Made by a program: the position numbers. Positions 1 to 3,000 of a stretch of 41,119 nt of DNA are shown here, in pieces. Origin of the DNA: a virus. Within the stretch, counting starts at the first letter, position 1; every line of letters begins with the position of its first letter. The stretch lies in UHGV virus genome UHGV-0135785, one strand, 5' to 3'.

Positions 1-3000
1 TAGTTACGAGCGACATTGCTCCGTGTATTCACTCGTTGGAATGAATACACAGTGCTTATTCGTACTAATAAAATACCCAATTTTCTGTTTCTTGGTTGTG
101 TCCAAAGTTATATTCAATATCTGATGTTGATGTATCAATATTTTTCATCCCATCAACAAGAGTTGATACAACAGCCAAATCTTGTTTTATTCTCATTAAA
201 TGGTATTTCTTCCGGCGCAATAAACTTTCAATAGCAAGTTTCTTCGTTGGGAATGCAAAAGATCTTTCTGCATTTTTTGCTACTTTCTTAATTGCATATC
301 TATTTCTCCTTTGTTTCCATTCCTGTAACCACTGATTTGGTGCTGGTTTAAAATTAACAATCCAATGCGCAGGAACCAACCATGCATAATGCTCTGTCTG
401 ATGAAAAGCTATATATTGAAGTGCGAATATTTTGATTCCATCTTCTTCAACTGTCGCTTGGAATCTCCAGAAAACAGGCATTCCCTCATGTTCAGTTTCT
501 GATTCAGGAAAAGGTACGCTCCATGATTTTGTCATATCTCACCTCAAATAATTCAGTGCAGTGTTTATTCTGTTGTTTATGCCAAAAGAAGGCAGACTAT
601 GCGGCCTGTGATGTTAGATTTACTTTCATTTTTGAACGGCAGCTACAATTATGATGGAATGTACAAAACCTCTTTCCAGTTCATAGAAGTGGATGATGGC
701 ATAAAATAATCCCACGACTCGTTAGCTACTAACTCTTTATTAACTGTGGTGGCAGCAATTTCGGCACCACCTTTATTATTAAAAATGTCGTTCGAATACT
801 GACATTTTCCATCTGCATGCACATATAAAATATCATATGTCTCTGTATCGTAATCACCACTTATGTCTCTGATAACAATTCCTGGCTTCAATGATTTAAT
901 TTTCTTGTCCATATCTCACCTCAAATAAGTGGTTTGCTGCCTAATTTCATTTTCTGGCGACCAACACAAGTAACACCCATTTCACTGCGTGGCTTGCGGT
1001 AGTAAATACGGTTCTGTTTACGCTCGACTTCTTCTGCCTTCTTGCAGCGAAGGCTTCCGAGTGATGCTGCTTTGTCTGCTCTGACGCAACCAGAGAGCTT
1101 TAGCGCAATTTTTCGCGCCAGTCGCTGCTCTTGCATTGCCTGTTCACGTTGAGCCTGTCTGCGTGCTCTGCGGCGATTTCTGGCGTTATCGTCAGCCAGA
1201 TATGTAATGACTACTGTCATGTTGACCTCCGATGATTGACTTTGGCGGTGACGCGCCGGGTGCTTATCTTCCGGTTGCCGTCGTGCAGCTGCACTTCACG
1301 CCACCCCAAAGCCAACTACTCTTTGGTTCCCGCATTTCGGCGGGACAATCCCATCAATGTTAAAGAGCTTGCCAACCTGTTCCGTTTGGCTACCAGCGTC
1401 CTGCTGATGGCTTAAATTTAAGATCTCTTTAATTAATGGTCAAGAGTGTTTTTGAAGAAAACTTAAATTTTCTTTCGTAACTTAAGTTTGGCTTTGATTT
1501 TTAAAGGAAATAAAAAAAAGGGGCGAATGCCCCCTTATGGAAGGTTTGCTAGTTTTGCATCGACAACTACGCCGATGATTTTGCAGTTTCCGTTGATCTC
1601 GATCATCGGATATTGTGGGTTAAGTGGTTTTAGAAACTTCCTGCCTGCATCAATAACTAACTTCTTGAAAGTTGCCTCGTTTTCTCCTTCGAGCTTTGCA
1701 ACTACCAGTTTCCCGTTACGCGGCTCTACTTCAGGATCGACGAGTATTATCATTCCTTCAGGGATACTGAGACCGGCCGGAGCCGTCATTGAGTCTCCCT
1801 TCACGTCCAACCAAAACGAATCTTCTGAACAGTCTACGGTTGTATCGTACCAGTTATCTATTGCACGCTTATGATATGGTTCTACAGCTTCCATCCAGCA
1901 TCCTGCGCTCACCCAGCTAATCAGAGGGTATGACCCTCTTGGATCATGCCTACTGTGATAGGCAATGTTTGAAAGACTTTCCTCTCCTTTCATCAGATAG
2001 TCAGGGGAACACTTCAACGCATTAGCCAGGGCGAGAAGATTCTCTCCATTTGGCTCTGTCTCAGAGCGTTCCCACTGAGATATGGCAACATTAGACACGC
2101 CGACCATCTTTCCAAGTGCGGCCTGCCTGATCTTGAGTTCTTTTCTCCGAGCGCGAATGCGCTCTCCCATCAATTGAGTTTTCATAGTTAAGACATCTTA
2201 AATAAACTTGACTTAAGATTCCTTTAGTGGATAATTTAAGTGTTCTTTAATTTCGGAGCGAGTCTATGTACAAGAAAGATGTTATCGACCACTTCGGAAC
2301 CCAGCGTGCTGTAGCTAAAGCGTTAGGCATTAGCGACGCAGCAGTCTCTCAGTGGAAGGAAGTCATCCCAGAGAAAGACGCCTATCGACTGGAAGTCGTT
2401 ACAGCTGGCGCCCTGAAGTATCAAGAAAGCGCTTACCGCAAAGCGGCATAAGCAAATTGCTCTTTAACAGTCATGGTCCTCATTCCCGCCGAAATGCGGG
2501 AATACAACGCGCATAAGTTGATGCGCATAACTTCTTATTTGTTAAGGAAATACTTACATATGGTTCGTGCAAACAAACGCAACGAGGCTCTAAGAATCGA
2601 GAGTGCGTTGCTTAACAAAATCGCAATGCTTGGAACTGAGAAGACAGCGGAAGCTGTGGGAGTTGATAAGTCGCAGATCAGCAGGTGGAAGAGGGACTGG
2701 ATTCCAAAGTTCTCAATGCTGCTTGCTGTTCTTGAATGGGGTGTCGTTGACGACGACATGGCTCGATTGGCACGACAAGTTGCTTCGATTCTCACCAATA
2801 AAAAACGCCCGGTGTGCAAGACCGAGCGTTCTGATCAAATACAAATGGAATTTTAACAACATCCAACGAGGTAATTATATGCGAAACAAAGGCTTTAATC
2901 CACCTGATACACACAAAGAAGCTAAGCGTTTGCGCTTCCTTCGTTCCATTGATGAAAGAACTCAAATCTCTTTTGTGAAAGTTGCCAGAACTGAGCTTCT

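What the first reader, a model, noticed from the sequence alone, without database searches (positions are those of the whole stretch)
65..912. AT-rich two-gene cargo cassette downstream of N, each gene preceded by the same 19-nt element
Two ORFs (87 aa and 156 aa) of unrecognised family lie between N and the window edge. The region is markedly more AT-rich than flanking N and c2. The 19 nt CATATCTCACCTCAAATAA occur identically at 533..551 and 910..928, so each gene starts with TTATTTGAGGTGAGAT-ATG on its coding strand. This locus is where lambdoid phages carry ral/sieB-type exclusion and anti-restriction cargo. A duplicated junction suggests cassette-wise acquisition; the pair may be an undescribed exclusion, defense or anti-defense module.
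Basis: partly seen in the sequence, partly recalled or inferred. Interest (0 to 1): 0.65.

Follow-up and report, generated by a model that had tools for sequence, protein, structure and literature searches.

The report
Swappable accessory genes after phage N
Two small genes of unknown function sit in the well-known variable "cargo" slot just after the N gene of a lambda-like phage; the 19-base repeat in front of each is a shared gene-start junction at which such genes have been shuffled between phages, an ordinary but unusually clean example of modular phage evolution.

Summary
CATATCTCACCTCAAATAA occurs exactly twice (533-551, 910-928), in front of a 156-aa and an 87-aa ORF on the minus strand. 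Both ORFs have 35% GC; N has 49% and the window 46%.

On the coding strand the element (J) reads TTATTTGAGGTGAGATATG. It holds the last N codons and stop (CTT ATT TGA), a 7-nt Shine-Dalgarno and the ATG.

Among 134 J sites in IMG/VR and GenBank loci, 19 upstream classes combine with 15 unrelated downstream genes in 40 combinations. Identity falls to background outside J plus about 12 nt of the N 3' end. J is therefore a recombination junction.

The two genes are independent cassettes, not a pair:
- The 87-aa gene replaces lambda orf28-ral between the same boundaries. It is in 8 of 5426 E. coli genomes, and three of six loci examined lack the 156-aa gene.
- The 156-aa gene is HK97 gp45 / 933W p19, found in 598 of 5426 genomes. 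Relative to lambda it is a 500-bp insertion flanked by CAGTGC.
- Phage 611R6 shows the clean 377-bp J-to-J deletion.

Neither protein matches Pfam, NCBIfam, PADLOC or any solved fold, so function stays unknown. Early pL/N-dependent expression during lytic growth is inferred. Interest is moderate to low.

The parts
910..928 (-). J copy 2. It holds the last N codons and stop (CTT ATT TGA), the Shine-Dalgarno GAGGTGA, a 3-nt spacer and the ATG of the 87-aa gene.
   Evidence: The N stop TGA is at 921-923, inside the element.
929..940 (-). 12-nt 5' extension of the junction (GCAGCAAACCAC on the coding strand; N codons ..S K P). It is 70-90% conserved across unrelated flanks.
649..912 (-). 87-aa accessory gene (p87; phrog_33140; WP_045133259-like). 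It sits where lambda has orf28-ral.
552..648 (-). Spacer. Its distal part (about 556-590) is homologous to the flank 3' of ral in lambda. It contains a weak terminator-like hairpin at 608->593.
533..551 (-). J copy 1. The same 19 nt in front of the 156-aa gene. Here the N-derived TTATTTGA is non-coding, that is, a relic.
65..535 (-). 156-aa accessory gene (p156; phrog_1636; identical family to HK97 gp45, 933W ST933Wp19 and phi24B vb_24B_11c).
56..555 (-). The p156 cassette as an insertion relative to lambda. Window 1-55 and 556-590 are contiguous in lambda. CAGTGC is present at both junctions (50-55 and 554-559).
18..55 (-). Conserved hairpin that forms the left (promoter-distal) anchor of the variable array. 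It is shared with lambda, HK620, 933W and HK97.
   Evidence: (z = -4.2)
921..1220 (-). N antiterminator gene (99 aa, ends ..GSKPLI*). It is the right anchor of the array.
1415..1443 (-). pL-like promoter (TTGACC, 17 nt, TAAATT) that would drive N and the cassettes.
   Evidence: consensus match only

Best explanation
Window 56-940 is a two-cassette instance of the hypervariable accessory-gene array of lambdoid phages. The array lies in the pL early-left operon, between the 3' end of N and a conserved hairpin.

The 19-nt element J (TTATTTGAGGTGAGATATG on the coding strand) is a composite gene-boundary junction. Its 5' half is the end of N (Leu-Ile-stop). Its 3' half is a strong, unstructured ribosome-binding site plus the start codon of whatever gene follows.

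Because this short stretch is identical in many phages while both flanks differ, it acts as the cross-over point at which first-position cassettes are exchanged, stacked and lost. The agents are presumably the phages' own Red/RecT/Erf-type recombinases, which accept short homologies (inferred).

The p156 gene (HK97 gp45 family) keeps its J, including the now non-coding N stop, wherever it sits. This marks it as a cassette that once abutted N.

In this window the p87 gene occupies the orf28-ral position next to N. That gives two direct J copies 377 nt apart.

Both genes lack a promoter-like site of their own. They are therefore most likely transcribed only from pL with N antitermination, early in infection or after induction. 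p87 would be translated by coupling to N termination, since the TGA lies 8 nt before the ATG.

The proteins' activities are unknown. The most likely class is early lytic-phase accessory functions (counter-defence or host modulation, as for the Ral protein that p87 replaces), rather than prophage-expressed exclusion. That last step is inference only.
For: Shown:
- There are two exact copies, against a chance expectation of 0.03.
- J precedes at least 15 unrelated genes and follows 19 different upstream contexts, in 40 combinations among 134 sites. Per-position conservation is 90% or more in J and 70-90% in the 12 nt upstream, with a 40-60% background beyond.
- 27 different cassette orders were found among 87 loci between N-J and the hairpin.
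- vB_EcoP-611R6 is the exact J-to-J deletion form.
- phi367 and lambda carry orf28-ral where the window has p87, with shared boundaries on both sides. Strains MS1657 and PM06121 have p87 joined directly to the lambda-type left flank.
- Window 1-55 and 556-590 are contiguous in lambda.
- p156 carries exact J in 65 of 66 cases whatever precedes it. Internal cassettes such as Ral, p207 and x98 have other ribosome-binding sites.
- In 933W, J is followed by a 45-nt non-coding relic of the PLI-type N end.
- J regions are unstructured as RNA (z +0.75 and +0.84).
- No sigma-70-like site lies on the minus strand within 1-920, whereas a pL-like site lies at 1443->1415.
- A p87 relative lies in an array of small hypothetical genes in a Vequintavirinae phage, which I take to be virulent (own knowledge, not in the record). 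Another lies in a similar array on a 49-kb metagenomic contig, whose only family hit is a weak one to T7 gp1.1 on a gene two positions upstream.
Against: - Recombination at J is inferred from the comparative pattern and was not observed.
- The IMG/VR loci were retrieved by exact J, so they cannot say how often the slot lacks J. HK620 has none, and lambda has only a 3-mismatch J-like site.
- The promoter scan is a crude consensus match, so a weak or non-sigma-70 promoter would be missed.
- AT-richness and a terminator-like hairpin are also features of prophage-expressed morons.
- No evidence of any kind bears directly on protein function. The p156 model is poor (pLDDT 63).
Confidence: 0.8

Rival explanations
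1. The two genes form one functional two-gene module (a defence, exclusion or toxin-antitoxin pair) acquired together, and the repeat marks its internal structure.
For: The genes are adjacent, co-oriented, equally AT-rich (GC 0.35 each) and share an identical translation start region. The same pair is seen in at least three E. coli chromosomes examined (strains E1, SCU-124 and A42), and S87 also matches 96% of window 1-1300.
Against: The distributions differ 75-fold: 598 against 8 of 5426 genomes. p87 occurs without p156 in EC28, MS1657 and PM06121. p156 alone after N is the commonest architecture, 40 of 87 loci. There are no PADLOC hits and no profile similarity between the two proteins.
Confidence: 0.05
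2. One or both genes are prophage-expressed morons that protect the lysogen (superinfection exclusion or abortive infection, like sieB, rexAB or HK97 gp15). They would be expressed from a promoter of their own while pL is repressed.
For: The composition is AT-rich and typical of morons. A terminator-like hairpin follows p87, and the HK97 record annotates a putative terminator for gene 45. The slot also holds sieB in lambda and a sieB-like gene in HK620.
Against: No promoter-like site lies on the coding strand upstream of either gene. Both are co-oriented with pL and directly coupled to N, whereas sieB is on the opposite strand. The c2 transcript ends at a strong terminator at 1536-1517, before pL. 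p87 relatives occur in an array of small hypothetical genes in a Vequintavirinae phage, which I take to be virulent, and in a similar array on a metagenomic contig. There are no PADLOC hits, and both proteins are hydrophilic overall (GRAVY -0.58 and -0.46); no transmembrane prediction was run.
Confidence: 0.12
3. J is a dedicated site for a site-specific cassette-capture system (integron-like attC/attI logic) rather than a passive patch of homology.
For: The sharp 19-31-nt island of identity between independently assorting flanks, and the stacks of up to five cassettes, superficially resemble a cassette array.
Against: J is not palindromic and has no significant secondary structure. No integrase or recombinase gene is associated with the slot. 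The nearest recombination genes are the general RecT/Erf/Red functions. Most internal cassettes lack J. J's sequence is fully explained as N stop + Shine-Dalgarno + ATG. Breakpoints also fall inside J (MS1657: CATATATCACCTCAA|TCGTAA).
Confidence: 0.03
4. The two copies are independent, convergent strong ribosome-binding sites and carry no evolutionary information.
For: The 3' 13 nt (GAGGTGAGATATG) are a near-ideal Shine-Dalgarno plus spacing. Selection would preserve that part.
Against: The match is 19 of 19, including TTATTT(GA). Before p156 this stretch is a non-coding copy of the N terminal codons. The chance expectation is 0.03 even with 3 mismatches allowed. The same 19-31 nt are found in more than 120 viral contigs.
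Confidence: 0.01

Closest known systems
Lambda pL-operon accessory region between N and cIII (sieB, orf28, ral, ea10) and its P22/HK97/933W counterparts
   Same: Same position, strand and flanks. Window 1-55 and 556-590 are about 95% identical to lambda 33992-34074. p87 sits exactly where orf28-ral sits. p156 is the gene annotated as gp45 in HK97 and ST933Wp19 in 933W.
   Different: The occupants differ. p87 shows no similarity to Ral, and neither protein matches SieB or any PADLOC model. The p87 > p156 order is rare: it was seen only in the window and prophage L001 among 87 J-bearing loci, and p87 itself occurs in 8 of 5426 genomes.
Conserved 'boundary' or 'linker' sequences as foci of recombination in lambdoid phages (modular theory of Susskind and Botstein; HK620 analysis of Clark et al. 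2001, recalled from memory; the model is summarised in PMC3233612)
   Same: A short sequence at a gene boundary is conserved among genomes whose flanking modules assort independently. This is exactly the pattern that model predicts.
   Different: This junction is not present in HK620 itself, so it is probably not one of the boundary sequences described there; I could not read that paper. Its origin is transparent here (N stop + ribosome-binding site + ATG), and one copy has been carried away from N together with p156.
Morons (Juhala et al. 2000, own knowledge): extra genes with their own promoter and terminator inserted between conserved phage genes
   Same: AT-rich single-gene insertions with sharp boundaries between conserved flanks. 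The p156 cassette is a 500-bp insertion with 6-bp CAGTGC at both ends.
   Different: No promoter-like site of their own was found. The genes are embedded in, and apparently depend on, the pL/N early transcript.
Ral (lambda restriction-alleviation protein)
   Same: Positional equivalence: p87 replaces orf28-ral between the same two boundaries. Both are small proteins of the early-left operon.
   Different: There is no sequence similarity. The predicted fold of p87 (beta-beta-beta-alpha-alpha-beta-beta, pLDDT 85) has no significant match. Anti-restriction activity was not tested.

Membership tests
Lambdoid N-to-cIII accessory-gene slot | Lies directly downstream of N, on the same strand, within the pL operon | tested here: met
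   The ORF map and the N assignment. A pL-like site lies at 1443->1415.
Lambdoid N-to-cIII accessory-gene slot | Flanks are conserved with lambda and its relatives while the content varies | tested here: met
   27 architectures were found in 87 loci.
Recombination boundary (linker) sequence | A short island of identity at a gene boundary between flanks that are otherwise unrelated | tested here: met
   The conservation profile is 90% or more in J and 40-60% outside it.
Recombination boundary (linker) sequence | Upstream and downstream modules assort independently across genomes | tested here: met
   19 upstream and 15 downstream classes give 40 combinations.
Recombination boundary (linker) sequence | Recombination actually occurs preferentially at the sequence | not testable with these tools
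   Only the products are seen, for example the 377-bp J-to-J deletion form in 611R6. Phage crosses are needed.
Moron (autonomous promoter-gene-terminator unit) | Own promoter upstream of the gene | tested here: not met
   No sigma-70-like site lies on the minus strand in 1-920. This is a consensus scan only.
Moron (autonomous promoter-gene-terminator unit) | Terminator downstream, and composition atypical of the genome | tested here: met
   A weak hairpin plus T-run lies at 608->593. GC is 0.35 against 0.46.
Known anti-phage defence systems (PADLOC) | Match to a defence-protein HMM | tested here: not met
   There are no hits at E up to 1.
Ral | Sequence similarity to lambda Ral | tested here: not met
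   BLASTP finds no alignment at E up to 100.
Ral | Alleviation of type I restriction | not testable with these tools
   This needs an efficiency-of-plating assay of unmodified phage on EcoKI+ cells that express p87.
Two-gene module (toxin-antitoxin or defence pair) | Conserved co-occurrence of the two genes | tested here: not met
   598 against 8 genomes, and each gene is found without the other.
Integron-like cassette site | Imperfect palindrome or folded site plus an associated site-specific recombinase | tested here: not met
   There is no structure, no inverted repeat at J and no integrase at the slot.

The most novel reading that the evidence does not exclude
p156 (HK97 gp45 / 933W p19) is present in about 11% of complete E. 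coli genomes and in many sequenced Stx-converting phages (about 50 of the 83 phage records that carry it). It, or the rare p87 that takes Ral's place, could be a new early-expressed counter-defence or host-takeover protein with a fold not yet seen. J would then be the handle by which lambdoid phages trade such genes. That would make the N-to-hairpin array (at least 15 first-position genes, 27 architectures) a ready-made catalogue of candidate anti-defence genes.
Probability: 0.3. Interest if true: 0.6.

Novelty: new member of a known kind. Interest (0 to 1): 0.35.

Why it matters
The slot after N is one of the oldest known cargo positions in lambdoid phages. Even so, its commonest occupant in Stx phages and HK97 (p156) still has no known function.

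This analysis gives three things:
- a base-precise anatomy of the slot: N 3' end, J, the ral 3' flank and the hairpin anchor;
- a clean natural example of the 'conserved linker' route to phage mosaicism, for which clear cases are few;
- a short list of interchangeable early genes (p156, p87, p107, p83, p140, p207 and others) that could be screened alongside Ral for counter-defence activity.

It does not reveal a new kind of system.

Tried and rejected
- Family libraries. Pfam, NCBIfam, PADLOC and PDB sequence searches of both proteins found nothing significant. PHROGs gave only families of unknown function.
- Homologue searches. p156 has 33-36 clusters, all Enterobacterales, with no Pfam domains or names. 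A profile search added nothing more distant.
- p87 hits to giant repeat proteins (P0041, P0047-P0049) were judged spurious. They are SprB-like repeats or translated tandem repeats.
- The afdb50 fold library was unavailable.
- Rfam found no RNA family in 1-1700. J shows no RNA structure.
- Literature. No paper holds the J sequence, the protein accessions or the locus tags. 'HK97 gp45' searches returned unrelated gp45 proteins. The accessory-gene screen in PMC12373910 includes Ral, but I could not find p156 or p87 in its supplements.
- J is absent from HK620.
- p87 against Ral, and p156 against p87: no similarity.

Full report
**1. Observation**

The window begins with the distal part of the early-left operon of a P22-like lambdoid phage, read on the minus strand.
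- The c2 repressor is at 1535..2185, followed by a strong terminator at 1536-1517.
- A pL-like promoter lies at 1443->1415.
- N is at 921..1220 (99 aa, PF25694/phrog_271).
- An 87-aa ORF (p87) is at 649..912 and a 156-aa ORF (p156) at 65..535.

The 19-mer CATATCTCACCTCAAATAA is present exactly at 533-551 and 910-928 and nowhere else, even with three mismatches allowed. Shuffles give 0.03 sites. The repeat finder returns the same pair, 377 nt apart, and the identity ends at 19 nt.

GC is 0.35 for both ORFs, 0.49 for N and 0.46 for the window.

**2. What the 19-mer is**

On the coding strand it reads TTATTTGAGGTGAGATATG.
- At copy 2, CTT-ATT-TGA are the last two codons and the stop of N (..GSKPLI*).
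- GAGGTGA is a 7-nt complement of the 16S rRNA 3' end.
- The ATG of p87 follows 3 nt later.

So J is the N stop plus a Shine-Dalgarno plus a start codon.

At copy 1 the same 19 nt precede p156. There the TGA terminates nothing, because an in-frame TGA lies 9 nt upstream (read). The N-derived half is therefore a non-coding relic.

Neither J context folds better than shuffled sequence (z +0.75 and +0.84). That fits an open translation-initiation region.

**3. J in other phages**

I analysed these together with the GenBank loci fetched here.
- J directly precedes at least 15 unrelated genes. These are p156 (about 66 sites), the 28-aa lambda orf28 peptide MEEEFEEF.. (about 40), and proteins of 107, 83, 121-149, 118, 81, 70, 62, 60, 56, 53 and 52 aa, as well as p87.
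- Upstream there are 19 sequence classes. Most are different N alleles. Some have no N ORF at all yet keep GCAGCAAACCAC|J.
- In all, 40 upstream-by-downstream combinations occur among 134 sites.
- With one representative per combination, conservation is 90% or more across J and 70-90% over the 12-13 nt upstream (GGCAGCAAACCAC). It is at a 40-60% background on both sides.

This is the signature of a recombination joint: a short island of identity between independently assorting modules.

J is not a universal cassette tag.
- Internal cassettes such as Ral, p207 and 'x98' have other ribosome-binding sites.
- p140 and p107 share only the 3' half (AGGTGA[G/T]ATATG) when a different sequence precedes them.
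- In strain MS1657 the break falls inside J.

**4. Anatomy of the slot and of this window**

Lambda (NC_001416) has N, sieB (opposite strand), orf28, ral and ea10. Window 1-55 and window 556-590 are contiguous in lambda (L124 1493-1575). Relative to lambda, p156 with its J is therefore a 500-bp insertion (window 56-555) with CAGTGC at both junctions.

The alignment shows three forms.
- Phage vB_EcoP-611R6 has N-J-p156 and lacks exactly the 377 bp between the two J copies.
- Lambda and phi367 have orf28-ral where the window has p87. They share the right boundary (J or J-like) and the left boundary (..TTATGCCAAAA..).
- E. coli MS1657 and PM06121 have p87 joined directly to the lambda-type left flank, with no p156.

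Between N-J and the conserved hairpin I counted 27 different gene orders in 87 loci, with one to five cassettes each. p156 alone is the commonest (40 loci). The p87 > p156 order occurs only in the window and in prophage L001.

In 933W, HK97 and phi24B, p156 follows a different N. There J is followed by 45 nt of non-coding relic of the PLI-type N end.

**5. The two genes are not a pair**

- p156 DNA is found in 598 of 5426 complete E. coli genomes (834 places). p87 is found in 8.
- Of the six p87 loci examined, three lack p156. Most p156 loci lack p87.
- Profile-profile comparison shows no relation between the two proteins.

**6. The proteins**

p156:
- It is 18.6 kDa with pI 9.1 and 7 Trp.
- It belongs to a family restricted to prophages of Enterobacterales, with 55-98% identity over 33-36 clusters and no names or Pfam domains.
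- A weak relative lies in the early region of a Vibrio phage, next to recE-like genes and a few genes from a replication-initiator gene. A Pectobacterium homologue sits just upstream of xis/int.

p87:
- It is 9.8 kDa with pI 4.75.
- It has about ten genuine relatives of 77-117 aa. One lies downstream of an S24 repressor. One lies in an array of small genes on a 49-kb metagenomic contig, where the only family hit is a weak T7 gp1.1-like match on a gene two positions upstream. Another lies in the Vequintavirinae phage KB57, which I take to be virulent.
- It is unrelated to Ral.

No defence-system HMM matches either protein.

**7. How it most likely works**

Shown: the position and orientation in the pL operon, the overlap of the N stop with the p87 ribosome-binding site, the absence of a promoter-like site on the coding strand in 1-920, a weak terminator-like hairpin after p87, and the combinatorial assortment around J.

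Inferred:
- Both genes are transcribed from pL under N antitermination, early in infection or after induction.
- p87 translation is coupled to N termination.
- J, together with the N 3' extension, supplies the short homology on which phage recombinases exchange first-position cassettes. These would be RecT in this window at 39416..40318, and Red or Erf in relatives.
- The direct J repeats make p87 prone to precise loss.

On function, my best guess is an early lytic-phase accessory role (counter-defence or host modulation). I base this on the positional replacement of Ral and on the occurrence of the p87 family in KB57, a phage I take to be virulent. This is weakly supported; I give it about 0.3-0.35. 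Prophage-expressed exclusion is less likely, at about 0.12.

**8. Comparison with what is known, and novelty**

The slot and its cargo logic are textbook lambda biology. p156 has been annotated as a hypothetical protein since HK97 and 933W were sequenced. The idea that short conserved boundary sequences focus recombination in lambdoid phages is old (summarised in PMC3233612; the HK620 paper is recalled from memory). J is a particularly transparent instance of it.

I found no description of J. No paper holds the sequence, the accessions or the locus tags, and J is absent from HK620.

Verdict: a real, well-defined feature; a new member of known kinds; the proteins' function remains open.

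Noticed in passing
window 18-55 (minus-strand RNA); also L124 1510-1547 (lambda), L135 6320-6365 (HK620), L126 1185-1225 (933W): A strong conserved hairpin (GCTCCGTGTATTCACTC / GAATGAATACACAGTGC; RNA fold z = -4.2) with no U-run. It marks the promoter-distal end of the variable array in all these phages and is not annotated in their records. It could be an RNA processing or stability site, or a terminator of the tL2 group.
   Followed up: partly
L124 1856-1990 (lambda 34355-34489): Upstream of lambda orf28 lies a J-like site (CATATATCACCTTAAATAG). 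Next to it is a degenerate copy of an N 3' end (GTGGATTGCGGTAGTAAAG..). sieB lies between this relic and the real N stop. Lambda sieB therefore looks like an insertion that split an ancestral N-J-orf28 junction.
   Followed up: partly
L126 1707-1768 (933W); same in HK97 (L134) and phi24B (L125): The 127-aa N of 933W/HK97 stops 58 nt before the p156 ATG. Those 58 nt are J plus a 45-nt relic of the '..VGRQKMKLGSKPLI' N terminus. That relic is still readable in another frame of the N gene, which suggests a frameshifted or recombined N 3' end.
   Followed up: no
window 40604-41119 and 1: kil (40708-40860) and cIII (within the 62-aa ORF 40845-41033, from an internal ATG) are at the far end of the window. 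The window then stops inside the gene that, in prophage L001, lies between cIII and p156 (a 322-aa coiled-coil protein). So the window is a nearly complete genome cut at a contig edge, not a closed circle.
   Followed up: partly
IMG/VR loci L004-L123, between N-J and the hairpin: At least 15 unrelated small genes can take the first position after N, and 27 gene orders were seen. Examples are p107 MEALVVER.., p83 MEFHESAI.., p140/149 MEEQANKI.., p207 MSSIRLTT.. and a 62-aa Cys-rich MHKCQFCG... None was characterised here. Several inner cassettes share Ral's C-terminal ..KAA* and its 3' flank, which suggests a second conserved boundary.
   Followed up: partly
window 593-608 (minus strand): A weak terminator-like hairpin (CAGGCCGCATAGTCTG + CCTTCTTTTG) follows p87. 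In other loci (for example L009 and L058) the same element is a perfect 8-bp stem plus T-run, AAAGGCCGCATAGTCGGCCTTTCTTTTT, placed directly before GGCAGCAAGCCAC|J.
   Followed up: no
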